DNA of 63,965 nucleotides, counting the filler, from Licmophora abbreviata (lineage: Eukaryota): NCBI GenBank assembly GCA_900291995.1. It is 9 parts of 9 records of this genome, joined end to end, with 100 filler letters (N's around TTAATTAATTAA, not from the genome) between each part and the next. Parts side by side here need not be neighbours in the genome. Positions count along the whole stretch, not along the records: positions 43,595 to 59,166 come from OLMU01001386.1; 8 more parts are not named here. The stretch is one strand, 5' to 3'. The translations under genes and the position numbers were made by a program. Shown one piece after another: positions 43,495 through 62,709 of this stretch. Position 1 is the first letter of the stretch, and each line of letters begins with the position of its first letter. The notes below the pieces were generated by a model. That model did not search any database. It was not told the DNA's origin and saw only the letters and a list, made by a program, of their open reading frames with translations.

Positions 43495-44003
43495 NNNNNN
43501 NNNNNNNNNNNNNNNNNNNNNNNNNNNNNNNNNNNNNNTTAATTAATTAANNNNNNNNNNNNNNNNNNNNNNNNNNNNNNNNNNNNNNNNNNNNTCGTAC
43601 CTTTTCGGACTTTTCGGTGATTTTTCATTTTCCTCGTGTCTCTTTACACGCGTATCTTTGGCTCGCCCCGCTTCTGGGTCGTGCATGAATTTTTGCTGCG
43701 TGCGGGTCCGGCGTCAGAAAAGCTAAAAGTAATGAAAACCTTCTATCAATACTGCTACTGGTAGGAGTGTATTATAGGGGACACTCCGTCTCCCTCTCTA
43801 TTCACACCGTGGTTTGGGAGATCCTACCTGAATAGCTTGACAGGGCCATGTGCTTCTGTGCTTCTGTGCTTCTTTACGTCTCAGTCGACAACCTTCTAAC
43901 ACAACACCTGGCGTCTAGAGAGTGAAGTAAGCAAATTCATGTGCACCGTACCTGTAGAGTCAGTCTATCCGAACCGAAGCTTGTCTAGCTAATTTACGAA
44001 GAG

Positions 44004-46043
44004 CTAGTCCCCTAACGAAGGTGACCCTAACAGAAACGTAGCGACCCAGCTGCGAAGCGCGTCGTCTGAAAGGTGTGACACATTTACGTCACTCTTAAAT
44101 ACCAGCGTGTCGTCTTCTTCGTCGAATCCTTCTCCAAGCCCCGATATCGGCGTACCATTCTCACTACTCGATGTCATTTTCTTATCCGTGTCTCGTTTCC
44201 TGGCGCCCTTGTTCCACGCGTCCTCGGCAATGGCAAGATTCGAAACCAAATTGAGTTTCGTGAGAATTTCTTGATTCATGAGCGCATCCCAGACACCCTG
44301 GACATGAGAGTCTGGTATCAACTCGAAGTTCCCGCTCTTGACTTCGCCGTCCATCCCTCGCGCGACGCCTTTCTCGCCCTTGGTCCAAACAGACACTCCA
44401 GTAACTACTAGAAAATCTTCCGGGGTAGCCAAACCTGTCCCGATAGCTGTTGTGATCTGCTCTGATGTACATTTGTAGATTGTGTCTTTTCCGGGGCCAA
44501 TCTCGCTCCCGATGCCTGCAGTGCGTAGCTTTGGATTGCAGTGGAGCCAAAGAAGTGGCTCTTGCCCCTTGACCGCGTACTGGCCTCCGAAACGAAGCGG
44601 AATCGATACTTTCCGCGACTGGCTGGTAGACTTGTCCGTTATTTGCATGTCAAGGCCCTTCGCCGCTGGCCGATTCAAGACGACGCCAACGCTGGTATTC
44701 TCGTCGTCCAGAATTACGAGAACAATCGACTTGTGCAGCTCTTGCTTCTCCAACAAGAATGGCGATCGGTCCGCGGACGATGCCCTTACTAGGCTTCCCT
44801 CTGTCACGCCATCCCCGCGCACAGCCGCCGAGACACGACTCAGTAAGCGATCTACCGGGTTGGCAGAGAGTATTTCCTGTGTCGATGGCACGCCCTCGGG
44901 AGAACGACGCCTCTCTCCTGCTCCGCCCCCAGCGGCGGTCGACAATAAATTCTGGCGGGCCCATTCTTTCAGTATCAGATCGTCAAAGTCGCCACTGTAG
45001 TCATCTGCCGTTTCGCCTCGTCCGATCATACGCATCAGCAAGTCCCATGTATCCAGTCCTGCGTCCCTAGGGTCGGCCGCTGTACCCAGCCTCGCGAGCT
45101 CCTTCAGCAGGGTTTGCGAGTCCGTGGCCACCATGTACCAGCTCTTTCGATCCAGCTCACCCATGAGTTGACTTGGACCCCAGCCAGCGTAGCCACAAAA
45201 GACCCAGAAGTCTGTCGGCTTGGCAGCTCCGGTCTTCACCAGTTTCTTGGCATTCTCAAACGTCGTCCATTGGATATCCTTCATTACAGGAATACTGGCC
45301 TTCCCGACCCGCTCGCCCTTGAGAGAGTGCAAACAGATAATGTCGGGGTTGGACGAATCAAGATTCTGAACGTCACCTCCAAACCAGACCCGCCATTTGA
45401 CGCCTTCATTGATATCGTCGTCGAGCGTCAAGTCCGTCGGTCGATTCAGAATAATACCCTTGGTAAAGGTATTCTCGTCATGATCCAGCACGAGAATCGC
45501 AGCTTTATGAAAGTATTGCTGTCGCAGGCCAAATCCAAACTCCTGCTCCACTCCTCCCAAAATCACTGCACCCTGTTCGATGACGTTACCCGAATCGTAC
45601 GCCCATTGCGACGGATCGAGGGGTGTCATGAATTTCTCAATAAGAGCACCAGCGCCATCATTCGAGACGTCTTGCTGTTGTTTTGTAGCTGTAGATCGAA
45701 AAACAGAACCTATGCCATCCAAGTCGCCTTCCTCGTCAAGAAGCCCATCTGCGCTACCATCGGCCTTGTCCTCCTTGGTCATGACAAGTTTTGCGCGAAA
45801 GGCTCTCCAGTCTTGATCTGAGAGATCAATTTCGTCGTCCTCCTCCTCTTCTTCCTCCTCGTCCGAGTCTCGGCTGGCATGAAGATATGTGTTGTGAAGG
45901 CGTTGAGTAGCCCTCGCGGAGAATGATCCGAGAGCACGCGGAGGGGTGATATGCAATCCAATCGCCCAGTGCTGATGGGAACCCATCAACATCCATACAA
46001 AGATACAGGAAAGCGTCAGTTTGGATGGAAGTTGTGACGCCAT
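44004..46043 (-). CDS. Tandem DUF179 (YqgE/AlgH, UPF0301) protein, probably plastid-targeted
   Basis: DWRAFRAKL; GIILNRP...FGGDV...GYAGW..QL..EL....W; second copy GVVLNRP...FGG; N-terminal signal-like segment. Confidence 0.82.
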   Translation of the reverse strand: MASQLPSKLTLSCIFVWMLMGSHQHWAIGLHITPPRALGSFSARATQRLHNTYLHASRDSDEEEEEEEDDEIDLSDQDWRAFRAKLVMTKEDKADGSADGLLDEEGDLDGIGSVFRSTATKQQQDVSNDGAGALIEKFMTPLDPSQWAYDSGNVIEQGAVILGGVEQEFGFGLRQQYFHKAAILVLDHDENTFTKGIILNRPTDLTLDDDINEGVKWRVWFGGDVQNLDSSNPDIICLHSLKGERVGKASIPVMKDIQWTTFENAKKLVKTGAAKPTDFWVFCGYAGWGPSQLMGELDRKSWYMVATDSQTLLKELARLGTAADPRDAGLDTWDLLMRMIGRGETADDYSGDFDDLILKEWARQNLLSTAAGGGAGERRRSPEGVPSTQEILSANPVDRLLSRVSAAVRGDGVTEGSLVRASSADRSPFLLEKQELHKSIVLVILDDENTSVGVVLNRPAAKGLDMQITDKSTSQSRKVSIPLRFGGQYAVKGQEPLLWLHCNPKLRTAGIGSEIGPGKDTIYKCTSEQITTAIGTGLATPEDFLVVTGVSVWTKGEKGVARGMDGEVKSGNFELIPDSHVQGVWDALMNQEILTKLNLVSNLAIAEDAWNKGARKRDTDKKMTSSSENGTPISGLGEGFDEEDDTLVFKSDVNVSHLSDDALRSWVATFLLGSPSLGD

Positions 46044-46479
46044 TTTGACCGCTAGAGGCACTTCTAAATCTCTCACCGGAAACGTTGCTCAAACAGTACA
46101 GAATGGAGCTTCTCTGTTCAGTATCTGTAGTCGCAGTCTGGTCATGCGGTCAATCTGAAAATTCCCATTGTCGTCTTTGTCGCCTGTGATGATCCGAGTT
46201 CTACTTTCAACTTTCCAGATTTTCGAGTGCACATCAGAAGCTGACGTCATCGTCGTAGAGGACGTACTGCAGTCTACACAGCGTGGGTGCGTCGTTACGA
46301 GAGCGGAGAGCGCGCATCATCCCCACACAAAAAGTGAGGACCATGGTAAAGCGAATGTCCGAACGCGATTGACCTAGAAACAACAGGATACGCACTGTAG
46401 CAAACAGGGGTTGGATTGAAGTATAATCACGATCAATTTGAAAAGAAGATTGTTATTTGGCCCAGAGGAACTTACAAAC

Positions 46480-48967
46480 ATGGAAGAGGAGCAAAATGAA
46501 AAGGATGTTTCCAAATTGACTGCCGCCGCCGAGACACAAACACAGCAGGATACTACTTCTGGAGGCAAAGCCGAGTCATCGTCCGACGAGGAAATGGAGT
46601 TTGGTGACGTGAAACGACCGGACGAGCTGACAGGACTTGCCAAGAAAAGGACGACAAGTCCTCCGACGGGAGGAGTGGTTTCGGATGGTGTGTCGTCGAC
46701 GGCAGCAGCAGCCACTCAGTCCAAAGACGGCGACAATAAAAGCGCCAAGGACAAAGAGACGAAACCGAAACCGAAATCTGCGAAGCGTGGTGGCAAAAGG
46801 CAAGGTGGACGAAATCAGAAACGGTCAAAGGCTTCCAAGCCTGGTTCCGAAGAGGTGGTTGGCCAGGAGGGAATTGACCAGGCGACAAAAGAGTTCGAAG
46901 AGACAAAAGCGAAAGTCATGGACGCTTTGCCAGAAAGTTACAAGGCTCGATTTGGTGAGGTCGTTTTCGCAAGGTACTCAAAAGAGTGGTACCCCAGTCT
47001 CATTTTGAGCCCATACGACGTGTCGCCGACAGGGGCAGTACGAAAGAAATGGATGGAAATGTTTGAAGACGTAAGCTGGTCTTAGCTTTCGGGGTGCACG
47101 TAATCGCAACTTTTGTCGTCTCACTCTCTCCTTTCCCATACCTTGTGACTTTCACGCTTGCAGACAAAGAGTAATAGCAGAAAATTGACTTATCTCGTCT
47201 ACTACTATGGGACTACCATACCGACCGAGTTTTATGGATTCCATCCATCTGCGCAAATCGTGACCTATGAAGCTGGTACGGCGAAGGGATATCATCAGAT
47301 CTCAAAAGTAGGACAGAAGAAAGAAAAGGAGGGAAAGACATTGAACAAGGATGACAGAGCCAAAAAGCAGGCAATGGCCGAGGTATACGAGGATCTCGAC
47401 AAGAAACCTGAAGACCGAAAGCGAGGCGAAAGTTTTAAAGAGCTTCATGAATCACAAGCCTTCCTGGATATCATGATGCTTCCCAAAAGTAAAGATATGG
47501 AAATATCTAGAATCGAATCTGGACTTGACTCATCTGAGGACGACGAGGTTGTATTCAAGCCAAAGAAGAAAAAGGTTCCCACGAAAAGGAAACCCTCAGC
47601 GACGAAAAAGGAGTCAAAGTCGGCTGCTCCGGCGGCTGCCCAACCAGTTGACATGTCGGTGATTGGGGACGATGAGCGCTCGTCGAGTGGTGAAGACAAA
47701 GATGACGAAAGCATTCAAGAGCCGTCGTCTTCCTCCGATGATGACGATGACTATATGGAAAGCAGCACGACCAAAGCGAAGGCCAAGCGAACAAATGAAC
47801 AAGGAAAGAAGGCAGAGAAGAAGAAGCCTATGCTCGATCGAAAGAGGACCAAAAGGCCGAGCAAAGAGCAAGAAGAAGATTCTGGAGGAGGAGCGTGACC
47901 GATACCTGGAAAGCCTCGAGAAATTTCGTCTTCCGCTTCAAAGATTGAATGCGGCGGTTAAGAGCAAGGATGCTGTTGAAGCCGAAGCCGCGATGAAAGA
48001 TGTTTTACGCATTCAGGTGAAAGAGATGGCTTGCTCGTTTATTCAAGAGTCGGGTGTGGTCCCACTAGTGAAAAACGCGAAGCAACTTCTGAAGACTGAG
48101 GAGGCTGGTTTGACGACATACAAGGAGCTATACAACCTGCTAAAATCCACCCACGAAGCGAAGAAAGATCAATTGCCGGATGTACATGATTTGAAGGGTC
48201 TCACGGCGAAATGGAGAGCGAAAACTCGAAAGAGCAAGCCGTCAAGAGTCGAAACACCTACGAAGAAGGCGAAATCTACATCAGGATCAACTGATCCGCC
48301 TAAATCGGAGAGAGTTGGCACTCCAGTCGGAAAATTAGGACTAACATCGGAGAATGTTGGCACTCCAGTCGGGGACGTATCAGCGCCGGGCGATGTCCTG
48401 CTCAAGTCCGCGCCCCCGAAATCTACCTCCGAACTCCCGCGATCTATCTCATCAGAAGTATCAACTGTCGGTGCTCCGAGACGAGAGAAGAAGTCTTTCA
48501 CGCTAGGAACCTATGTCCGGCCGTCGAAGTCGTCGAGTTCGTTGGATAGGAGTGAACAAGCCTCAAAACCGAAGGACCCACGTCTTTCGATAGAGAAAAC
48601 GAAGGTGCTGCCACTCTGGCTGACGAGTCCTCCGGAACCAGATGACGACTTCGAGAAAAACAAAGACAGAACCTTTGCCATGGAATTTATTCAGAGTGCC
48701 GCTACTCGACTGTCAGCTTCGAAAGTCAATGAGGGTTATTTTTCTAAATCTCTTGAAGCTGCCATCTTCAAATGGGCAAAGGAGAAGGTCACGCTATCAT
48801 GGGTCGACGACTACTGGCTGAAGGTTCATTCATTGGTGGGGGCTATCTGTGGGAAGGAAAAGGCGGGAACCATTGTCGATCAGATAGCGAATGGGGAGTT
48901 CGACACTGCACAAGCGATAGTGAAGCTTGACGACGACGCTCTTTTTCGCTCATTCGAAGGGATCTGA
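46480..48967 (+). CDS. PWWP/Tudor-like chromatin protein; intron 47071..47163; frame break near 47863
   Basis: FGEVVFARYSKEWYPSLIL...YLVYYYG...FYG; K/E-rich linkers; helical C-terminal domains. Confidence 0.7.
48304..48372 (+). repeat. 27-bp imperfect direct repeat inside the CDS (SERVGTPVG / SENVGTPVG), 42-bp period
   Basis: atcggagagagttggcactccagtcgg versus atcggagaatgttggcactccagtcgg. Confidence 0.85.
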
Positions 48968-49086
48968 GATAATGAATCGAGCAATCTGTACTAAGCGGGA
49001 TTGTTTCCACGAAGAGCAAGGATTTGGACGAGCATGGTTAACTATTTGCCTATAGTTTCCAGATCAGTCGACTCTCTGTATCTTTT

Positions 49087-50989
49087 TTAGCCGATGTTCC
49101 AGCTATCTTCCATGTCAGTTGCCGTCAACATTGCGTCGAGCTGTCCGACAATTCTCAAGAGTGACTTCTGCGTTCGGCACTCGTTGTGTACTTGGCTCTT
49201 CAGCTTTCCAAATAGCTCGTCAATCGTCTCTGACTGTCCCGCGACGCCTCCGTAGATGTCGCACAGTTTGTGGGCAACCCCGATTAAGAGCGATGAAAAC
49301 TGGGGTCTAGTAATGTAGCGCACAGTAAATGATAGAATCGGCTCCAATGTCTCTTCGTCGCGATTCGATAGCGCAACCGTAAGGCCACGGCGCTTGCCCA
49401 GGTCTTCTAGAACTGCAACCACCTGTTTGTCATTTTGCGTTAGCATCATCCGTTCATTGATATTGATCTCGTCAAAGCTGCAACAGCAAACTTACCGCTT
49501 GTGGCTGTCGCGTATCAAGCGCTTCATCCAACGCATCTCCGTACCGAAACTGCTTGAGCGCCATATCAAAGGATGCTAATTTGCGTTTGCGATCCGACGA
49601 CTCCAAAACAAAGTCACCACCCCTCGCTGACGCATTCATGCCTCTTGTAAAGTACGCATAGGTCCCCGCCCGTGGCTCTCGCGGGCGCTTTCGCTGCGAA
49701 ATGCTAGGCCCCCTTTGACGCACCAGCACTCTTCCGGTAGAAAAGCCAATTGCCAGTCGATCCATACTTTCATTAATGGAAAGGGACGTAATGGGATCCA
49801 CAAGCGGGATGCCGTGAATATGTTGTAATTGCCCAGTCGATGAGTTGAACGTATGTATGCGCACTAAGCCGTCTAGTCCTGCTGTCAAGACACGATAGGA
49901 CGCTTCATCTTCTTTGTTGGTTCCAATACTTATCCTTGTCATGCACAACAAACTCGTGATGGTCTTGCTGTGTTGTGTCTGCAACGTACAAGCACATGCT
50001 CCCGTCAGAGGATTCCACACCTTGATGATAGTCCCACCTACCGACAGCAACCAGTGGGGCTGCGTAGGATCTGCATGCGGCAACATCCTCAGTGCCTCAA
50101 CAGGGGCCCCATGTGTGAGCACGCCCAAACAGCGATCCTTCACATCAACACCATCAGTTGGTTCTAAATTCCAAACGCGAATTGTATGATCATAGCTTCC
50201 CGTCATACACAGGTCCTTCCAGTCACTCACTACATTGCTCGTCCGTGGCTGATACAAGACCACGCATCGAATGGAATCACCATGACCAGCAAAGGAAGTT
50301 TGTTGGTTGCCGCTGCTCGCTGCTGCCGCACCCTGCGACAAACTCCAGAGTCTCAAGACGGCATCGTCACCTGCACTCACAAGCTGCTTGCCATTACGCA
50401 ACCAAGCCACTGTCCGTACCGCCAAATTAGATGACGTATGAGAAGTAGCGTTTGCTCGGAACGTACACAGTATTGCTCTACTCGTAGCATCGCAGACACG
50501 GACGTCCCCATGATCGTTGCCGACCGCAATCAATCGACCATCGGAGCGAAACATGGCACACAGAGCGGGGTGTCCACCTGAATTGAGGTTGCGATCTGGC
50601 TGGAGTGATGACGGAGTAGTTGGCGTACTCGCACTGCCCTTTTGGGACTGGGAGAGTACTCGCGTCAGCCCGGCAGTATACAAGCAAACTCGGGGTCCAC
50701 TGACCACTGCCAAGGGCGCCGTTCGTCCAAAGGCGGGTGGGCCAAACGTGAGTTGTGAAACTATGGCATGCGAGGGTGGCTGAAGTAGAGCCGATCTAGC
50801 ATGGCTGTATTTGGACAGTGCACTTGAATAATTCCCGCTGCCCAAGCCAAAGGCTTGGTTCCAGTAGCGTGCTTCCGAGGGATCCGACGTGCTGGTGATG
50901 CCATCAGCACCGGTGAGGTTTAGTGTGATTGACGAGGCACTGGGCTTCTTGGTCGACAGATACGACGATGTTTTGAAGTCCCCAGACAT
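49087..50989 (-). CDS. UTP15: U3 snoRNP/SSU processome protein UTP15; join(50989..49496,49422..49087)
   Basis: WD40 repeats (FRSDGRL, GSYDHT, HGAPVE) plus C-terminal LKQFRYGDALD...VVAVLEDL...ALSNRDEETL. Confidence 0.88.
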
Positions 50990-51407
50990 GATATGAAGCC
51001 TGTTAACTCAATCAATGGATCAAGACTGTCAATAGAACGCCGTTTCGTGCTGCCATGGGCATTGCGAAAGAACAAAGGTTTCGAAATTGAGAAAGATGGG
51101 TGGGGTGGGCGGGAAAAAATTGAAGGGCGCAGGTGAGCTTGCGTCTGCCCGTCGTCTTATTTCAGGTTATGGGCGCAGTCATGCGTCTCACTCTTTGATG
51201 ATTTTGGATTCCCTATTCCGTACGTACGTCCGTCGCTCACAGGATACGAAGCGCAACGAAGCAAATCGACAGCACAAAAAGAGAGCCGCGACGACCACAT
51301 CGTCGGTGCTTGTTGTGTCTGCTCTGGAACGGCCATTCAGTCGTCTTCTCGCTCTGTCTGGATCTAGGTGCACTTGTTTGTTTCTATAGAATACGTCTGA
51401 ATCAAAA

Positions 51408-52564
51408 ATGACGGCCGCAGCCATGGAAACGGACGAGAAAACGTCTTCTACTTCCGCGCTTACGGGTGCGACCCCCAAAGACGTCGTGGATGTCACAGTG
51501 CACCCGCTCGTGCTGCTTAGTGCTGCCGATCATTACCATCGCGTGGCCCGAGGAACTCGCAAGCGTGTTGTGGGAGTCTTACTGGGTAGCGTGTCACGTG
51601 GAAGCGTCGATGCGACCAACTCGTTTGCCGTTCCCTTTGAAGAAGATTCCAAGAATCCGGTGCGTATTTCTGCTCATTTTGCGTAGCGTCAGTCGGTGAT
51701 ACTTCGTGGTCGACTTTAGGGCACTCTGGGGGATCCTTCTGTCATACCGTCTTCTCATGCTGCATTCTCACTCACTCACCGCACCAGGCTGTTTTCTATT
51801 TGGATCACAACTACTTGGAAAACATGATGGTCATGTTTCGCAAAGTCAATGCCAAGGAACGCGTGGTGGGCTTCTACAGCACCGGTCCGCAGATTCGACC
51901 CAACGATACAAGGATTTACGATATTGTCAGACGCTTTGTCCCTGCTCATGCCACTCCCCCAGTCTTTTGTATCATCGATATTCGTCCGGATCGTCCTTCC
52001 ATTCCAACGACTGCGTATCGCGTCGTGGAACAAGTGAACCCGACCAACAATACCATCTCGCTTACCTTTGCGCACGTCCCTTCCTTGATTGGAGCGCAAG
52101 AAGCAGAAGAAGTCGGAGTTGAACACTTACTCCGTGACATCAACGATCCCACCGTCTCGACTGTCGCATCCTTGATCAAGGCCAAACTCTCCGGCTTGGA
52201 TACTCTTGTGGAAAAGCTGGTCGAATGCAAGGACTACCTCGAGGCATGTGCAGCTGGTACCAAACCGCCGAATCCGGAAATTATCGCCAATCTCCAAACT
52301 ATCCTCAACCTCCTCCCAAACCTGAATACCGAATCACTCGTACGATCCATGCTTATCAAGACCAACGACATGCACATGGCTATCTATTTGAGTGCTCTCA
52401 TTCGCAGTGTCATTGCACTGCATGATCTTGTCAACAACAAGATTCGCTATGGTGAAGATGGGGAAATGAAAGAAGAAGAAAAGAAAGAAGACGAGAGTGG
52501 TAGTACTACGAAGAAAGATGAAACCAAGTCGGAGGGAGATAACAAGTCAGAAACGAAAAAATAG
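51408..52564 (+). CDS. RPN8: 26S proteasome lid subunit RPN8/PSMD7; join(51408..51659,51788..52564)
   Basis: [66 protein letters not shown]. Confidence 0.96.
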
Positions 52565-52703
52565 TAGCCAGCTAGAGGTATGCAGTCTGCTTTTGTCGAT
52601 CGTCGCTACTAGTTTACCTGGTACTGTTAGCTTTCTTAGTACGATTGATCAAGCAGGAATAATACATAGTAATTTTACTTTTCTGCATCTCTTGCGTAAT
52701 TAC

Positions 52704-54842
52704 CTACTCGAAAAAATCTGTCAAACGTGGCTTCTTATTGTTGGCATACTGCCGTTCGCTGGCTGCCCTGGATTCTTCTCGTACCGCTTCGCGCACCGCA
52801 GATGCGTTGAGGCAGCTATCAAGGTGACAATTTACTACAGAATTGTAGTCCAGCGAACAGGATTCGAAAGGGATCGGTTGCTGGCACATGGGACAGTTCT
52901 GTAGTTCCGGGGAAAAGTCGGTTTTGCCTGGGGCGTCGGCGGAGTGAGCTGCGGTGACAGTTCTATCATCCACCGGTATCAGACAACGCTTGTGAACCAC
53001 GACGGGGCTCAGTTTGCCGTCGATAGTGGCTGGAGAGCGGGCGGGTGGCGATCGCGTTGGCGTGGGAGATCTAGGTCGCGTCGAAGGTGCCTTGCCGTCA
53101 ATCTGTTTTTGGAGAAAGCGTTCGATATTCATCTTGCCCAGGTCGCTTTCGTCGTCGCCTTGAAAATTCGAACATCTGATGCCCAACAATCGCACTGAAA
53201 ACAGGCTACTTTTGGTGTTGACCGCATGCTGCTTTCGAAGCTCCACCAAGAGTTCTGTAGCGAGCGGAACAATATCTTCCGAAGATTGTAAGAAGACGCC
53301 TCGCTTTAGTGTTCGCGACTTGCTCAGGACATCAAAGGTGTGAAGCTTAACCTTGACCGTTAAGGTGTGCGCTCGAATGCCCTTGCGTACCATATCCGAT
53401 GATAAGAGTCGGCCAACGTCTTCGAGCCTAGACATGACGTCAGACCAGGGTCGGCCCGAGGCAAACGTCCGTTCGCGGCTAATGCCCTTTTGACCGCCAG
53501 ATGCAGAGGCTGCGAAATCGGATATGTTCGAAGACGAAGAGACCCCCAAAGAAGCTCGTAGGAGGAAGCGCGATGCCGCAGGTTGAAAGAGGAATCGAAC
53601 CAACGCGCGGTGTTCGTACAGCTCGCGAACTGTCTGGACTCCAAAGGCATGCAACTGTTTCTCCGTGACACGACCAACACCGGGGATCTTGCGTATCAAC
53701 AGCGGTTGTGCAAATTCCATTACACTCTCATGAGCCGGTCCAATAACCTTTTGTCCGTCTGGTTTGTTGAAGTCCGAAGCAATCTTAGCCAGCATAAAGT
53801 TCGGAGCCAGTCCAGCCGAACAAGTTAGTCCCCCTGTAGCATGTTGGACTTGAGCTCGCATCTGCGTCACAATCTTGCTAGCCGTATCGATTACAACATG
53901 TTGCGGAAACGAAGCCAGAACCACATCGAAATCTTGTTGCTGTGACACGGTCGCTTTTGCAAGAATGTCTTCGCCGTGCTCCTCATCGTGTCGACTGTCG
54001 GATATCACTTCTTCGCCGCAGGCTCCTTCAGTGTCACTTTGGTCGACCAGGCACAACAGAGAAGCCCGGATCTCTTCATGGGAATATCCTGGGTTTTGTA
54101 ATCTCCTTATCAGATATGGTCCGATATTGAGGTAGGCTTCGTCGAGACTGTAAGCTCGCAGTTGAGGATCGTACTCTGCCATGACACTTCGCACGACTTG
54201 CGACTTTTCCGTATAGAGCTGAAAGTTCGCTGGAATATGCACCAATTTCTGCTTCCCCCCACTCAGCTCTTCCACTAGCTTGTCGCCAATCCACCCGGCC
54301 ATGGCCGATCGTACACCGTATTGTCGTGCACAGTAGTTGCTGGTCAGAATCATGGAAGTGCCCACGACGGTCGGGACGTCACGTAGGTGCGGTCTAGATA
54401 GTAGCTCACAGTTGACGTAAAACATGTCGAGATCCACCACAACACAGGTGGAAAACAATGAGCGATTCGATAGCAACGTTGCGATTTCATCCTCGAGTTC
54501 TTGCTCCATCCTGGCTTTCCAGTGGACATCCTTCTGTTGCTGCTCCTCCAACCTGCGCCGTAGTTGCTTGATCTTACCGTCGACAGTTTGATCTCGTTTG
54601 CGCTGTTGCTGCATGTACGCCGAGTCACCGCTTTCTCGAAGTATAATGGAATCAATCTTTCTGCGATCTATGCCCTGCATGCCTGCCTTGTCACTGGCGG
54701 CAATGATGAGTGCGGTTGCGCTTGATGATGGAGTATGCTGGGGTGTATGATGGACTGTATCCATCCTGTCGCCATTCTCGCCCTCTGAGCTTTCTTCTTT
54801 CGTCTCCTGCCCTTCGGAAGGGTCTTTTGAACTACTGTTCAT
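52704..54842 (-). CDS. POLK: DNA polymerase kappa (DinB, Y family) with C-terminal UBZ finger
   Basis: KAGM N-clasp, VDLDMFY, NYCARQYGVRSAM, SLDEAYL, AKIASDFNKPDGQ, IPGVGRV, SRERTF, CPMC...HLDSC. Confidence 0.93.
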   Translation of the reverse strand: MNSSSKDPSEGQETKEESSEGENGDRMDTVHHTPQHTPSSSATALIIAASDKAGMQGIDRRKIDSIILRESGDSAYMQQQRKRDQTVDGKIKQLRRRLEEQQQKDVHWKARMEQELEDEIATLLSNRSLFSTCVVVDLDMFYVNCELLSRPHLRDVPTVVGTSMILTSNYCARQYGVRSAMAGWIGDKLVEELSGGKQKLVHIPANFQLYTEKSQVVRSVMAEYDPQLRAYSLDEAYLNIGPYLIRRLQNPGYSHEEIRASLLCLVDQSDTEGACGEEVISDSRHDEEHGEDILAKATVSQQQDFDVVLASFPQHVVIDTASKIVTQMRAQVQHATGGLTCSAGLAPNFMLAKIASDFNKPDGQKVIGPAHESVMEFAQPLLIRKIPGVGRVTEKQLHAFGVQTVRELYEHRALVRFLFQPAASRFLLRASLGVSSSSNISDFAASASGGQKGISRERTFASGRPWSDVMSRLEDVGRLLSSDMVRKGIRAHTLTVKVKLHTFDVLSKSRTLKRGVFLQSSEDIVPLATELLVELRKQHAVNTKSSLFSVRLLGIRCSNFQGDDESDLGKMNIERFLQKQIDGKAPSTRPRSPTPTRSPPARSPATIDGKLSPVVVHKRCLIPVDDRTVTAAHSADAPGKTDFSPELQNCPMCQQPIPFESCSLDYNSVVNCHLDSCLNASAVREAVREESRAASERQYANNKKPRLTDFFE

Positions 54843-55218
54843 GGTTTGAGGTCAACTATGAGCACTGAAACGTCGATGCGGCGAGGCGTCTCGCTCATGG
54901 TGAAGGTTGGTCGCAAGTTTGATGGGAGGCGCCGATTTATGGCGCGTGATTTTTTGCCAAGAGCCATCACAGCAGGGACGAGACAGACGCTGATGTTGAA
55001 TGTATGTTTGCCATCATGGCTTGCGACGAGAGATGAATGATGATCTCAAACCTCTATAGATCTGTGATGATGAATATCTTGGCGCTGACAGGGTGTCGGG
55101 GAACAAAAGCAGAGTGTAGAGTAGAAGTGTTAATATTCTTTTCATCATACATGTGCGGCTGAGCTATCCTATCTACAAAAAGGTTCGTCCGTGGCAGCAA
55201 CGCACACACCATCGCACT

Positions 55219-57348
55219 CTAGACCGTGACTTGATCCCCGGGTTGGCTTCGAAAGCTAGATCGTCGTGAGTCTGAGCTATGGATGGGACATCCATCGCAT
55301 AGACAGCCCGGACCGCAGTTGCACTCGCCTCCAGTCATCATAGCGCAGCTCTGAGCAATTCCATCGGTTGCCACCCTGGCAGCGGCGTTCGGGCTGGTTT
55401 GATTCTGGTTGTAGCTGTTGTTGATGTGAGCGCTGTGATCGACGTTAACATCAAAGTCTTCCATGTTCTCCCAGTCAATAGACAAGGCTGAAAGACCTGA
55501 CATAGCACGACCGAACGTCAAACCGTCCGACAGAAGCGACATCTGCCGCATGGCTCCCATTGAAATGATGGACGGATTTCTCATGGCACGATACATGGAC
55601 TCTCGCTGTCCCATGGGCGCATGGCCCTCTGGCGCGCCATTTTGGAACGCCTGGTTCGGGTCATCGAAGGGTATCGAGAGAGGCTGTAGGTGTTCGGCGC
55701 CAGCAGCGATGTGCGCTTCTGCAGGACCCTGGCTCTTGCAGTGATCTTCGCAGTTCTTGCAGCGGCAGTCGGGACCGCATGTGCAGCCCATGCCGTACTT
55801 CTTTCCGCAGCCAGCCATATATTCCGTGACTTGCTTCTCGCGAGATTCAAAAGCGTCAAAGATCCGCGTGTTCATTTGCGAGTGCCTGTGCAACGACAGC
55901 CAAATCAAAGAGTGAGCGACGCACCCGTGAACGACAGTGATTTCCGTTCTCGATACATCCACGTACCTAGAGCAGTCGTCACGAACGATCCCGTTGTCCG
56001 GACAAGTGCACGGAACTTCCCAATTAAAGACATCCTGAGCGTCCGTGGTGGCGACAACTTCGAAGGCCGTACTCAACGCGCCAAGATCCATGGTCGCCTT
56101 CTTGTCACCACCCGCATTAACAATACTCATCTCTTTCGTTCTTGCCGTGTATCCCACCATAGATAGGTTCCTGGCTGCCTCAAATGCAATACGTTTTGCG
56201 CTACTGCTCTGATCAATCTTAATCAAAATGCGATTCAACGCGCGATCCGCGGCCGCATCCAGCAGGCCGTGGATGGGCGACTTGTTTCCGTTGCATCCCT
56301 TCAACACTGTCTCAACAATCTTGACACAGTGGGCACAAGTAATGCCGTCGACTGACATGGCAATCTGGATATCACCGTTTTCACTGACAAACACGACAGG
56401 CGTCGTACTTGGATCACCGTACTCGCCTCCCGCAATTGCTGCTGCGGTCACGCCGACCCCGGACCGTCCCATGCCTCCACCGCGATACGCCAGCTGAGTG
56501 GCCCTGGAACTGACAGCGTTGACAACGTTTGGGAGATCAATCTTTCCAGGGATACACTTGCCCTTCATGTCGAAAATCGGCATTGCGTTCCCTGGGCCGG
56601 TGGCCTCCAGAAGTCCGGCATTCAGTCCACCATCGTCAGCCAACTGCTGTTGCTGGGCGGCATGTAAACGCTCCAAAGGAGACAATGCATCGCCTGTCCG
56701 TTCGGGATTCATGGAGGCAAAAGAAGATGACTGGTTGACGTTTGGAACCGCGCGAGCGGCAACAGGCGGCATGTAGTTACCGTCACGCCCGCGTTTCTTG
56801 CTGCGCTTGTTGCGGAACTTCTCGAGATCCCTCATCTTTGAGTGCAGCGAACGAGGCGGTTGCTCCTTGTCGTTCACAACGAGACAATGGGCAAGGTTGA
56901 AGAAGTGACGAGTGTAACCATCGACAACACCTCGCATTTTGTCGCCACCGAGGGCCACGACAGCCGATCCACTCTCGCCCTTGCGACGATGCTGCCACCA
57001 AGTTCGGAGCGTCGTGAGACCGAGCTGGATGGCATCGCTGTCGGCATCTGGACCCAACCAGGGACTGAGGATCGCTTGTACGTAGGGATGGGTAAGACCT
57101 GTACGAGGCAGAGGCTCGTATGGGTAGAGTTTCCGGTCCGGATTTCCGTCTTTCTTTGCATAGCGATCATCCTTCTTGGCCGCCTCCATGCGAAGGTCGT
57201 TCAAGATGGGATAATCGAGAGGATCCAGGTCACTCGGTTGCTTGTTTTCCATTTCTTCGGGGTCTAGTCCACCCAAATGCGACCAGGCGCGAAAGGCACC
57301 CTCAAAGATGGATGTACGGTGTTCGAATTCTCCTCGACGGCGTGACAT
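55219..57348 (-). CDS. HMA-domain protein with two CxCx3CxCx2Cx2H motifs (candidate copper sensor); join(57348..55967,55885..55219)
   Basis: MSVDGITCAHCVKIVE (HMA); CTCGPDCRCKNCEDH; CNCGPGCLCDGCPIH; basic KFRNKRSKKRGR; 81-nt in-frame GT-AG intron. Confidence 0.85.
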   Translation of the reverse strand: MSRRRGEFEHRTSIFEGAFRAWSHLGGLDPEEMENKQPSDLDPLDYPILNDLRMEAAKKDDRYAKKDGNPDRKLYPYEPLPRTGLTHPYVQAILSPWLGPDADSDAIQLGLTTLRTWWQHRRKGESGSAVVALGGDKMRGVVDGYTRHFFNLAHCLVVNDKEQPPRSLHSKMRDLEKFRNKRSKKRGRDGNYMPPVAARAVPNVNQSSSFASMNPERTGDALSPLERLHAAQQQQLADDGGLNAGLLEATGPGNAMPIFDMKGKCIPGKIDLPNVVNAVSSRATQLAYRGGGMGRSGVGVTAAAIAGGEYGDPSTTPVVFVSENGDIQIAMSVDGITCAHCVKIVETVLKGCNGNKSPIHGLLDAAADRALNRILIKIDQSSSAKRIAFEAARNLSMVGYTARTKEMSIVNAGGDKKATMDLGALSTAFEVVATTDAQDVFNWEVPCTCPDNGIVRDDCSRYVDVSRTEITVVHGCVAHSLIWLSLHRHSQMNTRIFDAFESREKQVTEYMAGCGKKYGMGCTCGPDCRCKNCEDHCKSQGPAEAHIAAGAEHLQPLSIPFDDPNQAFQNGAPEGHAPMGQRESMYRAMRNPSIISMGAMRQMSLLSDGLTFGRAMSGLSALSIDWENMEDFDVNVDHSAHINNSYNQNQTSPNAAARVATDGIAQSCAMMTGGECNCGPGCLCDGCPIHSSDSRRSSFRSQPGDQVTV

Positions 57349-57891
57349 GGTGGAATCGTGCGTAAGCTAGGTTGCTGCGTAGGAACAAACGTGAAGATTG
57401 TACGAGACACGGTGAGGCGAGGACTTCACTTGTTTCTTGAAGTTTCGACTTTGTTTCTCTTTCTAAAACACTCAATTGAGCTCAAGTGCGAAAAAGAGAA
57501 GAAATGTGGGCGTAATTTTATGACTAGGTCCGATACAAAAGAAGAGCAGGGTGCATGCAAGATCCACGTTGCCTGTGCAGGGTTTGCTGCAACTCGCAAC
57601 TCTCGCGGCTCCAAGGGACAAGCCAAATTTTTGACCAGGGGAAGCCAGTGATGCTGTGTGACGTCGTTTATATTAATAGAAATCCATCCTATCAGATCTT
57701 TGTTAAGCAGTTGAATGTGTCGTCTGTCCTACTTTCTATTAAATGGACATATTTGTTTAATGGAATGCTCATCCAAAGAGGGTCTGGTCTGGCTTGGCGA
57801 ACGATCTTCGCCGACATCGCCGAGTTTTGATGTCGTCGAAAAGGCGATGTGAAGGTCGGTGATAGACTAACCATATTCTGTCGCCGCGGTC

Positions 57892-59058
57892 ATGTTGAGG
57901 TCGAGTTTGAGAATAATCGCAACGCCACTCTCATCCTACAAACTTCTTACGACTCTACCTCTACGTATGTCTTCTTCTTCTTCGTCACTCGCAGCTCCTG
58001 CTTTGGTACATGGCGCAGCAGGCGTCACGACGGACGACCAAACGAACGCTGAGGACCGCCGTCGCCGGGGCGAGTTTGTGCGTGGAGTATCCACGGCCCG
58101 TCACTGGATATCATCGGAACCCAGCGCCCTGTATCCTCCGGAAGCCAATCGATACCATTTGTACGTAGCGTACAATTGTCCTTGGTGTCATCGAGTGTTG
58201 TTAGGATTGGCCGTGCTCGGCCTGCAGGACGTCATTTCCGTCGATGTGTGTTTTCCGAATCGAAGTAGCGATGATGAACCGCTGGGTCCGAATTTATGGA
58301 AGTTTGCACCGGATGGACAAGTTGGAGCAAATGGGAAGCACGTTCAACTCGATAGTTGTACGCCCGATACTGTAAACGGCAAAACATATGTGAAAGAGAT
58401 TTATGAGCTTGCAGGTGTGACGGATCAGAAGAGTGTACCTCTGCTATTTGACAAGCAAACCAAGACGGTCGTCAACAACGAAAGTGCCGAGATTCTTCGT
58501 ATGCTGGGTACCGAAATGAGACAGTTTGGTAGTCATTCCGATATCGAGTTGTATCCATCCAGTGTGGCAAGTGAAATTGATGAACTGAATGATTGGATCT
58601 ATAAGGACATCGCGAATGGCTCGTACAAGGCAGGATTCTCCTCTTCCCAACAAGTCTACGAAAAGGCATATCATACCTTCTTTGCGGCACTTGATCGTCT
58701 CAACGCACTTTTAGAAACTCGAACGTATCTTACTGGAGACAAGGTGACGGAAGCAGACTTACGACTGTTCCCTCCCATGTTTCGATTTGATCCAGTCTAT
58801 CATTCGAGATTCAAATTGAACCAGAGTTACCTTTGGAGCTATCGACACATTTGGCGATGGATGCAAGCCATGATGGCGTTGCCTGGGATGGAATCCGTGT
58901 CGAATGATGAGTATTTGCAGCACTGCAAACAAGGGTACTTTGGTCGAACTGGTAATGGAACAGTGCCGATTGGTCCAGCTGGATATCCTGACGTGTACAA
59001 GACGCAACACTGGTCACATGCAGCCGTATCCACTGACAAGTTGGACTATCCTGAGTAG
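57892..59058 (+). CDS. Glutathionyl-hydroquinone reductase (GST Xi/omega, ECM4/YqjG family)
   Basis: RGEFVR, RYHLYVAYNCPWCHR, SVPLLFD, VNNESAEI, YKAGF, TEADLRLF, RFDPVY; first ATG in frame at 57967. Confidence 0.92.
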   Translation: MLRSSLRIIATPLSSYKLLTTLPLRMSSSSSSLAAPALVHGAAGVTTDDQTNAEDRRRRGEFVRGVSTARHWISSEPSALYPPEANRYHLYVAYNCPWCHRVLLGLAVLGLQDVISVDVCFPNRSSDDEPLGPNLWKFAPDGQVGANGKHVQLDSCTPDTVNGKTYVKEIYELAGVTDQKSVPLLFDKQTKTVVNNESAEILRMLGTEMRQFGSHSDIELYPSSVASEIDELNDWIYKDIANGSYKAGFSSSQQVYEKAYHTFFAALDRLNALLETRTYLTGDKVTEADLRLFPPMFRFDPVYHSRFKLNQSYLWSYRHIWRWMQAMMALPGMESVSNDEYLQHCKQGYFGRTGNGTVPIGPAGYPDVYKTQHWSHAAVSTDKLDYPE

Positions 59059-59510
59059 TAGGGTAGCAAACTGATAGTTTCGTGTGTTCTTTTAGAAGAC
59101 GAGTGAGTGACTAGACTACTAAATGCACGTCGATGGTCGAAGCAACGATCTCATCACTATTTGCCANNNNNNNNNNNNNNNNNNNNNNNNNNNNNNNNNN
59201 NNNNNNNNNNTTAATTAATTAANNNNNNNNNNNNNNNNNNNNNNNNNNNNNNNNNNNNNNNNNNNNGCCCTAACGATAGCCAATGCCGTGGTGGGCGAAG
59301 AGGAAATGCCGACGTTGTTCGCCATGGTCAGATGAAGCAAAAAATGCTGCGATGCACAGAATCCTGCCACGACCTGGCATAAATATTCTATTTTGGTTGA
59401 TTCCAAGTGATATTTTCCGAAACTATCTGAATTGGCCAAATTAGCACCAAAGTCGCAGAAAAATGCTGTGGTCATTCTGTGGCGAGTGGCAACGCGTCGC
59501 AGCAGTGACC

Positions 59511-62500
59511 ATGGCGACCTTGAGCAAGAGCAACAGTGGCGGCCCGAGCGGTCGTCTCCAGACGAGCGATGCCTCCAACACTCACTCGATCTCCAACATG
59601 AGCAACGCTGCCGCGGCGACGGCATCGCTACAGCTGCTGCTGCGCGAAGATCGCCTGTTGACCCAGCATGAGTTGCACACGACCACGGCCACCAGCACGA
59701 GCGACTCAGCCTTTTCGTACGCTGCTGCGCTGCTTCAACAGAGTGAGACGGGCACTACGCCGTCCTCCTCGTCACTTCAATTGCAGGCACAGACGGCACT
59801 GAGTGAAGTGGAACGAAAACTGACGCTGGTCCAATCGTTGGCGGAGCGTGTCTCGCGCACCTCGCCAGAAGCAGTGGCCGGGCCGCTCCTTCGTCTGCAC
59901 GGATACCAAGACGTTCTGATGACGGACATGGTCGACAAGGAAGAAAAGAGTGATTCTCCAAGTACTCCATCTACACTTCCGACGTCTACAAGTACACTCT
60001 TGTCCATCCGCGAACGCTGCCACCGACTCATGCGTCAAGGTGACGTCCTGGAGACCACCTCCAAGCGTGTCGAGGGGTCTTTGGGACGAGGCTACCAGCG
60101 CATGGAGACTGCTACGACTCGACTGTCGCGTGTACTTCAACTCTCGCAAACCCTGAAATTGGTATTGAAACTGCAGCTTGAAGCTATTCAGCTCACACAT
60201 TTTGACTTGGAGGATGTGCGAGAATTGACACGGGCCGCCGCTTCTGTACGTGTCGTCGAAGACTTGCTCCACCAGCCAGAATTGAGCAAGTCGACAATTC
60301 AAGTGGTCCAAATGATGCGACCGGCATGTGACGATGTGGCACGACAAGTGCGATCGGCCGCACAGGAACTTCTCCGACGCTTCCATTCGCCAGAGTCCTC
60401 TACGACGTCGACCGGCATGATGCAGCTGGGAAATACGCTGCAAGTATACTTTCACCTACAAGAACTGCCTGATGCGACATGGAGTGTCGTAACGCATGTC
60501 CTGTCGACATTGGAAAAGGAACAGGAACAGTCACTCTGGAGTGCAAACAAACTTCAGGCGATTCTTGATACGGCGCAGAATGAAGCTCGTTTGAGCATGG
60601 CGAGTACCTCGTCGTCGTCTTCCTCGAAACCCACTGAAGCGGCGTGGCAGCGCGCATTGTTGAAGAAACTGCGCAGCGCCCGTAGACAGGCAAGTAATGA
60701 CTGGGGACGAAGCGTGCTGTCTTCATCCCAGCACGTCTTTCGGTTGCACCGTGTCCTTTCGCGCAAGACAGACCCGGCATCGCGACAAGTATTTAACAGC
60801 GTCGTCGCCAATGCCGAAATTCCGAAAGAATTTGCCGAATATGATGAGAGCGATCCCACAATCGAGTTTAGCGTCTTCTCGTTGTTTTGGAACAGGTGGT
60901 GTCACGATCTGAAAGAACTGCTACAGTCCATGTTGGAGTCCGACCAGCACAAGGACATCGCAGCACTGTATCCAGCCGTGCGGGCTGCATCGCTGGATAT
61001 GCTTGGAAGGTTGCAAGATGCCATACAAGCCGGAAGTCATTCTAGTAGCATGGAGGATGCGTCTTTGTTGTCGAGCACTACGAACGCGTCGTTATCAGGA
61101 GTTTTGGGAGGCTCGGCAGCGCTGGACGAGGCCGCATGGTCGTCGTCGAACAGCAACGGAGCTATCGGAGCGCTGGCCGATGTGAGTTCCCCTGCGTTGA
61201 AGTCAGCCCTTGGCGCCGACACATGGACACGTGCTCTACGCCTAACGGATGCCGAAGATGGGGCAACTCTCGGTGCGACTTCCTCCTCTACTGCCACAGC
61301 GACGTCGCTGTCTGCAATCTACCAGTCATCTGAGTACAAAATACTCCAGAACGTTGGGCTGCTTCCCTTGCGGCAGGCATTCTTGGAGGCTTGTCGGGAC
61401 CGGCTCTGTGCTCCTCTGCGATTCATGTTTCCTGAAGGCGTGGCGGTCGATGAAGACGGTGTCGCTGTACCTGTCTTGCCGGCGTTGCCATCGCGTTACG
61501 ATCTGCAGAAACTTGATGCCAGCATACGGCAGGAGCTGTCCTTGGCCGATCCACGCGAAGGTGGCGGCGAGCTAAGTATGACGAGTATGATCGCCGAAGT
61601 GGTTGTAGAGATGGTGGAGCAATTCTGTCTACGAGCGAAGGGCGCTGTGACCGATTCAGGTGAAGAGGGCTGTCTGCGCGCGGATGGAAGTGCGACAGAA
61701 GCACTTCAGCACGATATCAAAGTTGCAGGAGTCATGAGCGCATTGTCCACGTCCTTGCGGAATGCCCCCGAGAACACTTTCGTAGTGCCGTACCGCCCCG
61801 CGACTTCAGCGCAGCACGAAGAAGCTGCGAGTCTGTGCCAGATTGCGTTGATGCCAGCCCTGCATGAAATCGAGAGTGTGGTTAGTAACCTCATCCTGAC
61901 ACCAATGTGCCGTGCCCTGAATCGCCGCGTTGCAACAGCTATCTCGAGACTACACCACGGAACTTACTTGGATGAAAGCCTGGCCGGTGCCGAGGGACAA
62001 GGTACCTCATTTGTGCAGAAGCATCTAGCGAACCTATATGACGACATTTCTACCCATCACCTTACTGCGTTGCCAACGGAGTATGCAAGCATCGTCGCCT
62101 CAACGGTAGCCACGTACTCAATTTACACTTTTGTGTCCAACGTATCGTTGGTGCGGCCGCTTGGCGAAAGGGCGCGTCTGCACCTCACGCAGGATCTCGC
62201 CGACTTTGAACTCGCTCTCGAGCAGCTAGTCTTTAAGGCTGGCAGCTCCATGTCGTTATCCCAGGTCGCCAACGGCAAGCCGTACGCGGAGCTACGTGCT
62301 GTGCGCCAGATGCTCTTCTGGACAGGGCTCGAGAACAAGAGCCTTTCAGCTTCGTCGTTGGCCAAGGCTATGCTGCGCGAAGAGTGGGTCAAGGACGTCC
62401 GCCCCTCGACGGTCTTTCATTTTCTATTCTCGTTCGGTCCAACGCTCTTGTCGTCTCCGCACCATTCCAAGAGAATGAGACCCGAGGAGTATGTTCGTAC

Positions 62501-62609
62501 GTTAGTCGTAGTGGATGGATCGATTGACGACGGCGAAGCTAGTGCGTGGATGACGACCATGGCGTGCTGTGACTCCTATCAGCAGCGCGATAGCGTCGAC
62601 ACAGGAGGA
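59511..62609 (+). CDS. COG5: Conserved oligomeric Golgi complex subunit 5 (3' end in gap)
   Basis: Long helical ORF; LQVYFHL, RVLSRKTDP, SLVRPLGERARLHLTQDLADFELAL, YAELRAVRQMLF, LSSPH. Confidence 0.8.
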
Positions 62610-62709
62610 NNNNNNNNNNNNNNNNNNNNNNNNNNNNNNNNNNNNNNNNNNNNTTAATTAATTAANNNNNNNNNNNNNNNNNNNNNNNNNNNNNNNNNNN
62701 NNNNNNNNN

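What the first reader, a model, noticed from the sequence alone, without database searches (positions are those of the whole stretch)
55219..57348. Candidate diatom copper sensor: HMA domain plus two Cuf1/Mac1-type Cys-rich motifs, NLS and unknown N-domain
Seen: HMA loop GITCAHC (56326-56337); two C-x-C-x3-C-x-C-x2-C-x2-H motifs (55741-55785 and 55279-55323); a third CxC...Cx2H cluster (CTCPDNGIVRDDCSRH) formed only after splicing; a basic NLS-like patch; a ~170-aa folded-looking N-terminal region I cannot assign; no TM helices or P-type ATPase motifs. Known: this spacing is the Cu(I)-sensing C-rich motif of S. pombe Cuf1, and S. cerevisiae Mac1 carries two related motifs. Those fungal factors use a copper-fist DNA-binding domain, which I do not see here. 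Inference: a soluble nuclear copper-responsive regulator with a different DNA-binding module and a built-in chaperone-like domain. I know of no characterised diatom equivalent.
Basis: partly seen in the sequence, partly recalled or inferred. Interest (0 to 1): 0.8.

Follow-up and report, generated by a model that had tools for sequence, protein, structure and literature searches.

The report
Diatom metal-binding protein with unassigned domain
Diatoms share an uncharacterised soluble protein that joins a copper-chaperone-like domain to a highly conserved domain of unassigned fold, making it a good but unproven candidate for the regulator that tunes their genes to copper.

Summary
The gene has two exons and gives 682 aa. 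The in-frame 81-nt intron is confirmed by relatives (49 spliced, 20 with GT at the same point, of 79 loci). It has no membrane helix, a true HMA fold, and two C-x-C-x3-C-x-C-x2-C-x2-H motifs spaced as Aspergillus Mac1 REP-I/II. Those motifs are the variable part: 39 of 86 full-length relatives lack both, including a whole Nitzschia/Cylindrotheca clade, and a metallothionein beta-domain has the same cysteine spacing. What stays is an almost invariant ~168-aa helical N-domain (AlphaFold pLDDT 93, no fold assigned), the HMA CxxC (84 of 86), and the splice-formed CxC..CxxH site (81 of 86). The N-domain also occurs without HMA, on low-complexity tails or fused to HA or DUF6824 domains, as a regulator's module would. 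Best reading: a diatom-wide metal-responsive, probably Cu(I)-responsive, nuclear regulator that senses through the HMA core, with the repeats as accessory buffers (about 0.4). DNA binding, copper binding and location are untested. It is not a Mac1/Cuf1 member. Phaeodactylum has an orthologue (EEC50919.1). An earlier scan note found similar motifs on a protist copper pump (other DNA, unchecked).

The parts
55219..57348 (-). Whole gene, ATG to stop; two exons, 682 aa after splicing
   Evidence: one N-domain match in the own genome
55886..55966 (-). 81-nt in-frame phase-2 GT..AG intron splitting the Arg codon before the His of the third Cys cluster
   Evidence: same position in 20 genomic loci, spliced form in 49 loci of 79
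56845..57348 (-). N-terminal all-helical domain (aa 1-168) of unassigned fold; near-invariant 1-28 and 75-165 with conserved Arg, Trp, His, Glu; candidate nucleic-acid-binding module
   Evidence: conservation; pLDDT 92.9, pTM 0.86; no fold assigned
56785..56844 (-). Basic helix with NLS-like patch (aa 169-188)
   Evidence: 11 K/R against 3 D/E in aa 166-190; net >= +4 in 52 of 113 relatives, median +3; helix in both models
56632..56682 (-). Conserved linker helix 1 (SPLERLHAAQ..), also seen in some HMA-less paralogues
56473..56562 (-). Conserved linker segment 2 with one conserved Cys (C265, 97%)
56137..56376 (-). HMA (ferredoxin-like) domain; metal loop GITCAHC at 56346-56326; extra conserved Cys352
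   Evidence: VIA Z 7.8, rmsd 1.3 over 66 residues to 4a48_A (model of relative P0002); profile hits to CopA/ATP7B/CopZ, best E 4e-5; CxxC in 84 of 86
55882..56010 (-). Third cluster C-x-C-x9-C-x2-H (Cys at 56010-55969, His at 55884-55882 after the intron) on a folded extension of the HMA domain; likely one-metal site
   Evidence: CxC-x9-11-CxR in 81 of 86; block pLDDT 77-96 in the matching part of the P0002 model
55738..55809 (-). Cys repeat A: C-x7-C-x-C-x3-C-x-C-x2-C-x2-H-C (strict motif 55785-55741)
   Evidence: present in 44 of 86 relaxed, 33 of 86 strict
55423..55512 (-). Strongly conserved acidic-aromatic motif in a disordered region (GRAMSGLSALSIDWENMEDFDVNVDHSAHI); candidate activation or docking motif
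   Evidence: W626 and H638 at 97% in 67 aligned relatives; low pLDDT; DWE/DWD remnant in 3 of 19 HMA-less representatives
55279..55347 (-). Cys repeat B: C-x7-C-x-C-x3-C-x-C-x2-C-x2-H (strict motif 55323-55279)
   Evidence: present in 17 of 86 relaxed, 15 of 86 strict; weak match to metallothionein
55222..55266 (-). C-terminal tail with RRSS patch; relatives mostly end in V-[STQA]-F, this protein ends QVTV
   Evidence: 63 of 84 relatives

Best explanation
A diatom-wide, soluble, metal-responsive regulator of gene expression, most likely responding to Cu(I). Shown: architecture, splicing, HMA fold, pattern of conservation. Inferred step 1: the N-domain with its basic helix binds DNA or chromatin and brings the protein into the nucleus. 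Inferred step 2: the conserved sensing core is the HMA GITCAHC loop (Thr before CxxC, the Cu(I)-type rather than the Asp Zn-type signature; recalled) next to a C-x-C-x9-C-x2-H site that probably holds a structural Zn or a second metal. Inferred step 3: the acidic-aromatic DW motif in the disordered tail is the activation or docking element; metal loading of the core switches its exposure or the protein's location, as in Mac1 and Cuf1. Inferred step 4: the two six-Cys/His repeats that flank the DW motif are ancestral accessory Cu(I)-cluster sites that buffer the metal or set the threshold, and were lost several times.
For: The N-domain is nearly invariant from Met1 (no room for a signal peptide), with R3, R11, R20, R82, R115, R121, R122 at 93-100% and W22, W97, W117, W118 at 96-100% of rows with a residue, among 114 relatives. 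It is modular: 19 of 93 representatives with a long tail lack the HMA core, and their tails are 26-49% S/T/Q/N/P. Of 29 proteins scanned, one carries four HA repeats and two carry DUF6824; reading these as nucleic-acid-binding families is recalled. The HMA fold's top structural and profile matches are mostly Cu-ATPase and Cu-chaperone domains. CxxC is kept in 84 of 86 and the third cluster in 81 of 86 full-length relatives. Repeat spacing equals A. nidulans Mac1 REP-I (C339, C341, C345, C347, C350, H353) and REP-II, and the layout of N-terminal module plus two C-terminal REP-type motifs mirrors Mac1. Both repeats occur in Attheya, Dactyliosolen, Ditylum, Gedaniella and the window protein (tree). 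Diatom Cu uptake is inducible (PMC9502191 passages), and a diatom Cu-responsive factor is only hypothesised in PMC5570362 (passage).
Against: Nothing here shows DNA binding: no Pfam family for the N-domain at E up to 10, no fold assigned, and residues 75-165 are charge-neutral (9 K/R, 9 D/E). The basic patch is net >= +4 in only 52 of 113 relatives. Both repeats are missing in 39 of 86. CxxC is broken in 19 of 74 HMA-bearing representatives, mostly divergent paralogues. Zn-transporter domains (ZntA, ZiaA, HMA4) score within about 1.5 Z of the Cu ones, so the fold does not pick the metal. Neighbouring genes of orthologues show no metal transporter or cuproenzyme (76 frames scanned). The fusions rest on single assembled sequences, and one similar fusion (TPT, P0236) looks chimeric. 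No expression data under copper stress could be tied to the gene.
Confidence: 0.42

Rival explanations
1. A metallochaperone or scaffold, not a transcription factor: the HMA core carries Cu(I), and the N-domain and short tail motifs bind a client protein, a phosphatase or RNA, as in CCS or plant HIPP proteins.
For: The only assignable domain is chaperone-like; JGI labels relatives 'copper chaperone CopZ' (automatic); the N-domain core is charge-neutral; a V-[STQA]-F end in 63 of 84 resembles a PP1 or PDZ docking motif (resemblance recalled).
Against: N-domain-only paralogues with low-complexity tails, and HA or DUF6824 fusions, are hard to explain for a chaperone; basic NLS-like helix; long disordered tail with an acidic-aromatic motif.
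Confidence: 0.25
2. A nuclear regulator whose input is not copper: Zn, Cd or Co, or thiol redox, with the HMA serving partly as a protein-interaction domain.
For: Zn-type HMA domains match about as well; a C3H site is typical of Zn (recalled); metallothionein-type repeats bind several metals (recalled); CxxC is lost in 19 of 74 HMA-bearing representatives; a GST gene lies head to head in the window and in 2 of 79 loci.
Against: Thr-CxHC loop like CopZ (alignments); the His-ended repeat is the Mac1 REP form; profile hits are mostly Cu proteins.
Confidence: 0.2
3. A metallothionein-like metal buffer or store with no regulatory output.
For: Repeat B aligns without gaps to mouse MT-1 beta-domain (E 4.5) and hits Pfam Metallothio at E 0.0017, below cut-off.
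Against: The repeats are the least conserved part and are absent in 39 of 86, while 300 or more folded residues are nearly invariant; a 682-aa carrier for about 13 Cys is a poor store.
Confidence: 0.05
4. The N-domain is an enzyme or a small-molecule/metal-binding helical bundle, and the HMA core feeds or regulates it.
For: Conserved His and Glu residues (H10 81%, E16 98%, E78 99%, H87 98%, H120 98%) could line a site; the fold is unassigned.
Against: Conserved Arg and Trp outnumber them; repeated pairing with low-complexity tails; geometry of these residues could not be inspected in the model.
Confidence: 0.08

Closest known systems
Fungal Mac1 / Cuf1 low-copper transcription factors (S. cerevisiae Mac1, A. 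nidulans Mac1, S. pombe Cuf1, C. neoformans Cuf1)
   Same: Two five-Cys/one-His motifs in the C-terminal half, with exactly the A. nidulans REP-I/II spacing; N-terminal folded module; proposed metal-switched activation.
   Different: No copper-fist or (R/K)GRP; an unrelated 168-aa helical N-domain; an internal HMA domain and an extra C3H site; the motifs carry a sixth upstream Cys and are missing in 39 of 86 relatives.
HMA domains of P1B-ATPases and CopZ/Atx1 chaperones (PF00403)
   Same: Ferredoxin-like fold (Z 7.8, rmsd 1.3), G-x-T-C-x-x-C loop, Gly-Tyr at the end of helix 2.
   Different: Ile in place of Met in the loop, an insert with a conserved Cys, a C-terminal extension with a C3H site, embedded in a 682-aa soluble protein with no ATPase or membrane part.
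Metallothionein beta-domain (PF00131; mouse MT-1, PDB 1dft)
   Same: C-x7-C-x-C-x3-C-x-C-x2-C spacing, gap-free but weak.
   Different: Ends in x2-His; two isolated 23-aa units rather than a small all-Cys protein; below Pfam cut-off.
Chlamydomonas CRR1 / plant SPL7
   Same: Proposed role as algal nutritional Cu sensor; CRR1 is an SBP-domain protein with two metal-responsive domains (reference titles seen), one of them a Cys-rich C-terminal region (recalled).
   Different: No SBP hit in Pfam; HMA domain present; no sign of homology.
TALE homeodomains (PF05920)
   Same: By eye, three short motifs in the same order (..RAW, ..HPY, L..WW..RR) resemble helix 1, loop and recognition helix.
   Different: Not significant: hhalign P 0.07-0.39; column shuffles reached the local score in 4, 14 and 7 of 40; about 55 extra residues after the first motif.

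Membership tests
Mac1/Cuf1 copper-fist transcription factors | N-terminal copper-fist domain (Cys-X2-Cys-X8-Cys-X-His plus (R/K)GRP) | tested here: not met
   First Cys is residue 155; no PF00649 hit at E up to 1 or 10; definition from PMC6354809 passage
Mac1/Cuf1 copper-fist transcription factors | C-terminal five-Cys/one-His REP motifs | tested here: met
   Two copies with A. nidulans REP-I/II spacing; both present in only 8 of 86 relatives by the strict pattern
Mac1/Cuf1 copper-fist transcription factors | Cu(I) binding to the motifs switches activity; binds Cu-response promoter elements | not testable with these tools
   Needs biochemistry and genetics
HMA domain proteins (PF00403) | Beta-alpha-beta-beta-alpha-beta fold with CxxC in loop 1 | tested here: met
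   Model of relative P0002; Pfam 23.2 bits against cut-off 24.8; PDB profile E 4e-5
P1B-type heavy-metal ATPases | Membrane helices, actuator and phosphorylation domains | tested here: not met
   Maximum hydropathy 1.32; no ATPase Pfam domain
Metallothioneins | Small protein made mostly of Cys clusters | tested here: not met
   682 aa, 21 Cys after splicing (22 less one in the intron); PF00131 18.8 bits against cut-off 23
Homeodomain (TALE) proteins | Three-helix fold with recognition-helix motif | tested here: inconclusive
   Best local profile match is the recognition helix but is not above shuffles; no homeodomain among the 50 listed fold matches, which does not exclude it
CRR1/SPL7 SBP-domain copper sensors | SBP zinc-finger DNA-binding domain | tested here: not met
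   No SBP hit; the N-domain holds a single Cys

The most novel reading that the evidence does not exclude
This family is the diatom copper-sensing transcription factor: an independently assembled eukaryotic metalloregulator that binds DNA through a new helical fold, reads Cu(I) through a built-in chaperone-like HMA domain, and converged on Mac1-type cysteine switches. Its N-domain would also found an unrecognised diatom transcription-factor family.
Probability: 0.33. Interest if true: 0.88.

Novelty: new variant of a known kind. Interest (0 to 1): 0.66.

Why it matters
Diatom Cu uptake is inducible and Cu limitation reshapes photosynthesis, but the passages read name no regulator: a 2022 review has 0 uses of 'transcription factor', and PMC5570362 only hypothesises one. 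This family gives one knock-out target in Phaeodactylum (EEC50919.1 / B7FT71), with natural variants carrying 0, 1 or 2 Cys repeats as a ready comparison. Whatever the metal, the N-domain is a confidently folded, very conserved module with no Pfam family, which domain-based transcription-factor censuses would miss.

Tried and rejected
Fold of the N-domain: Foldseek PDB 0 of 46 matches at E <= 0.001; VIA wide best Z 4.2, 0 of 48,161 chains at Z >= 5, the Rap1 DNA-binding domain at rank 21 with Z 3.1, rmsd 4.5, 84 aligned; VIA second look 1 of 46 at Z >= 2; viral library 0 of 104 at E <= 0.001. This leaves the fold unassigned, not proven new. ESM Atlas: no usable feature hit for residues 1-195 or for P0009; structure rows only HMA-bearing proteins at TM <= 0.21 by query. 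Homeodomain origin: not above shuffles. Homodimer of residues 1-290 of P0002: no verdict, score 0.00, alignment not used. RNA runs: none was listed. Longer fused forms: none among 7,999 candidates of 1765-5000 aa, weak evidence. Copper-fist search of the own genome: 0 matches, but the control also rang nowhere. Shared upstream element with locus L033: chance level, 143 of 300 shuffles reached the score; GTAC counts 0-7 per 600 bp in 16 upstream regions show no pattern. Gene neighbourhood: no metal gene among 76 of 80 extracted frames from 22 loci (four duplicates left out). Papers naming B7FT71, XP_002178105 or EEC50919: 0; DUF6824: 0; Cuf1 'C-rich motif' with Mac1: 0. Supplements of PMC5156380 searched for HMA terms gave two P-type ATPases and one ABC transporter; I could not map the orthologue to a Phatr3 id. 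The careful tree did not finish; the quick tree is used. A Pfam scan of all members of alignment A1 was not obtained.

Full report
Observation. The window holds a minus-strand frame from ATG 57348 to stop 55219 that reads 709 aa without interruption. An 81-nt GT..AG intron at 55966-55886 lies in frame; removing it gives 682 aa and joins CTCPDNGIVRDDCS to RH. The intron is real: of 79 related loci, 73 matched a pattern for this site, 49 in spliced form, 20 with GT at the same phase-2 position and 4 otherwise. GITCAHC is at 56346-56326, the two five-Cys/His motifs at 55785-55741 and 55323-55279, and the basic patch at 56820-56785. The motifs are the only 2 matches in the window, against a mean of 0.00 in 100 shuffles. 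A shorter form of the pattern gave 5 matches genome-wide (1 for the reversed control), 2 of them these; the other 3 lack the final His or stop in frame, and I did not follow them up. Peak hydropathy is 1.32, and Pfam finds only a sub-threshold HMA.

The family. A full-length search gave 398 proteins at E <= 0.001 among 8,000 candidates, of which 120 were listed; the organism names shown are diatoms, apart from cut-off or missing labels. The first 200 residues found 141 representatives among 1.84 billion, with no sign of an unrelated distant family. Named members include Seminavis, Attheya, Nitzschia, Cylindrotheca, Fragilaria, Gedaniella, Skeletonema, Conticribra, Ditylum, Leptocylindrus, Corethron and Phaeodactylum tricornutum (EEC50919.1, XP_002178105.1, B7FT71). 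The own genome gave one N-domain match. In a quick tree of the core (81 of 86 rows; 5 dropped for lacking the cut-point motif; repeats excluded) the window protein sits in a 14-row group with Gedaniella and Fragilaria (SH-aLRT 94), which suggests an araphid pennate diatom (inference).

What is conserved. In 67 aligned relatives residues 1-28 and about 75-165 are almost invariant around a variable insert; C338, H340, C341 and C352 are at 100%. That set was chosen on the third cluster, so its 100% there is circular. The independent count uses 86 full-length proteins: 84 picked on the N-domain and DW motifs, less one HMA-less paralogue, plus the query and two divergent members; several are near-identical pairs. 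Here the HMA CxxC is in 84 and CxC-x9-11-CxR in 81. The Cuf1-type repeats behave differently. By a relaxed pattern 39 have neither, 30 only A, 3 only B and 14 both; by the strict pattern 46, 25, 7 and 8. A 24-row group with Cylindrotheca and two Nitzschia (support 88; inner 21 rows 99) has neither. A 10-row group with Skeletonema and Conticribra (99) fails the pattern, though 8 of its rows keep four Cys at site A. Both repeats occur in Attheya, Dactyliosolen, Ditylum, Gedaniella and the window protein, and Phaeodactylum has A only. The simplest reading is that both are old and were lost repeatedly (inference; midpoint-rooted quick tree).

What the repeats resemble. The mutant list in PMC6354809 (passages) gives A. 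nidulans Mac1 REP-I as C339, C341, C345, C347, C350, H353 and REP-II with the same spacing, exactly the window's. The same paper finds these motifs dispensable for low-Cu growth, and PMC13343922 (passages) finds the same for Cryptococcus Cuf1, with only a slight effect on repression in excess Cu. Each window motif has a sixth Cys upstream, and repeat B aligns without gaps to mouse metallothionein-1 beta-domain (E 4.5; Pfam PF00131 E 0.0017, below cut-off). So the Cys spacing is a general thiolate-cluster pattern and only the final His is Mac1-like. An earlier unchecked note of this scan reports Mac1-type motifs on tails of protist and diatom Cu pumps, which would make the unit a portable copper module rather than a mark of transcription factors.

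HMA core. The model of relative P0002 (71% identical) folds residues about 300-475 with good confidence and leaves the tail disordered. Its best matches are HMA domains: Z 7.8, rmsd 1.3 over 66 residues to 4a48_A, Z 7.8 to ATP7B, Z 7.5 to ZntA. The family profile hits CopA, ATP7B and CopZ (best E 4e-5). The fold cannot tell Cu from Zn; the Thr-Cys-x-His-Cys loop leans to Cu(I) by likeness to CopZ (alignments; the Thr/Asp rule is recalled).

N-domain. AlphaFold gives an all-helical domain at pLDDT 92.9, pTM 0.86. No family or fold could be assigned (see Tried and rejected). Seven Arg and four Trp are 93-100% conserved, as are E16, E78, H87 and H120; the core is charge-neutral and the following helix is basic. 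The domain is modular: of 93 representatives with at least 150 further residues, 74 have the HMA core and 19 do not. Among 29 scanned, one has four HA repeats, two have DUF6824, and one has a transporter domain that looks chimeric. I noticed a likeness to TALE homeodomain motifs and tested it against diatom homeodomains; it is not above shuffled controls, so it stays a lead.

Mechanism and odds. A conserved folded N-domain, a basic helix, a metal-binding core, a disordered tail with an acidic-aromatic motif between two Cys clusters, and N-domain-only paralogues fit a metal-switched transcription regulator best. I put this at about 0.42, with the HMA core and not the repeats as the conserved sensor. 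The rivals are a chaperone or scaffold (0.25), a regulator for another metal or redox (0.20), an enzyme-like N-domain (0.08) and a pure buffer (0.05). Every functional step is inferred. Neighbouring genes give no help: no metal gene among 76 frames, and a head-to-head GST gene recurs in 2 of 79 loci.

Comparison and novelty. It may work like Mac1/Cuf1 but is not a member: the copper fist is absent. It is an HMA-domain protein by fold, not a P1B-ATPase and not a metallothionein. Databases label it only 'HMA domain-containing' or 'CopZ'. Search listings on diatom copper regulation showed no paper on such a family by title or abstract start, and accession searches found none; subscription papers are largely outside this library. 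I read passages only of PMC6354809, PMC13343922, PMC9502191, PMC5570362, PMC1929147, PMC8779346 and PMC9873189, and supplement hits only of PMC5156380. Verdict: real, conserved, apparently undescribed; a new variant of a known kind, interest 0.66.

Noticed in passing
window 57871-59058 (+); L033/L035 139-1158: A GST gene (GST_N_2/GST_C_2; omega or glutathionyl-hydroquinone reductase type by recall) lies head to head with the gene. The same arrangement (69% identity) is in two loci whose motif reads like the Phaeodactylum protein; 2 of 79 loci, 22 of them 5 kb or longer.
   Followed up: partly
L022, L030, L037, L041, L059, L060, L061 (downstream flanks): Triosephosphate isomerase and/or dihydrodipicolinate reductase recur downstream of orthologues in seven loci; conserved microsynteny not seen beside the window gene.
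   Followed up: no
window 55222-55266: 63 of 84 relatives end in V-[STQA]-F, like a PP1 RVxF or PDZ docking motif (recalled); the window protein ends QVTV without the Phe.
   Followed up: partly
proteins P0167, P0220/P0492, P0189, P0132, P0163, P0203, P0209: The N-domain occurs without HMA, fused to DUF6824, to four HA repeats, to a coiled-coil-like segment or to low-complexity tails: a possible unrecognised diatom regulator family.
   Followed up: partly
window 52704-54851 (-): Y-family DNA polymerase (IMS domains; Pol kappa-like by recall) directly downstream; ordinary.
   Followed up: no
window 43495-43594, 59167-59266, 62610-62709 and five more: Paired 44-N runs mark joins between contigs; only 43595-59166 is one contig (C1386), so the COG5-like frame at 59445-62657 is not a true neighbour.
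   Followed up: yes
L002 (G000:C2703); proteins P0262-P0270: Some diatoms encode tandem TALE homeodomain proteins with two homeodomains in one chain.
   Followed up: no
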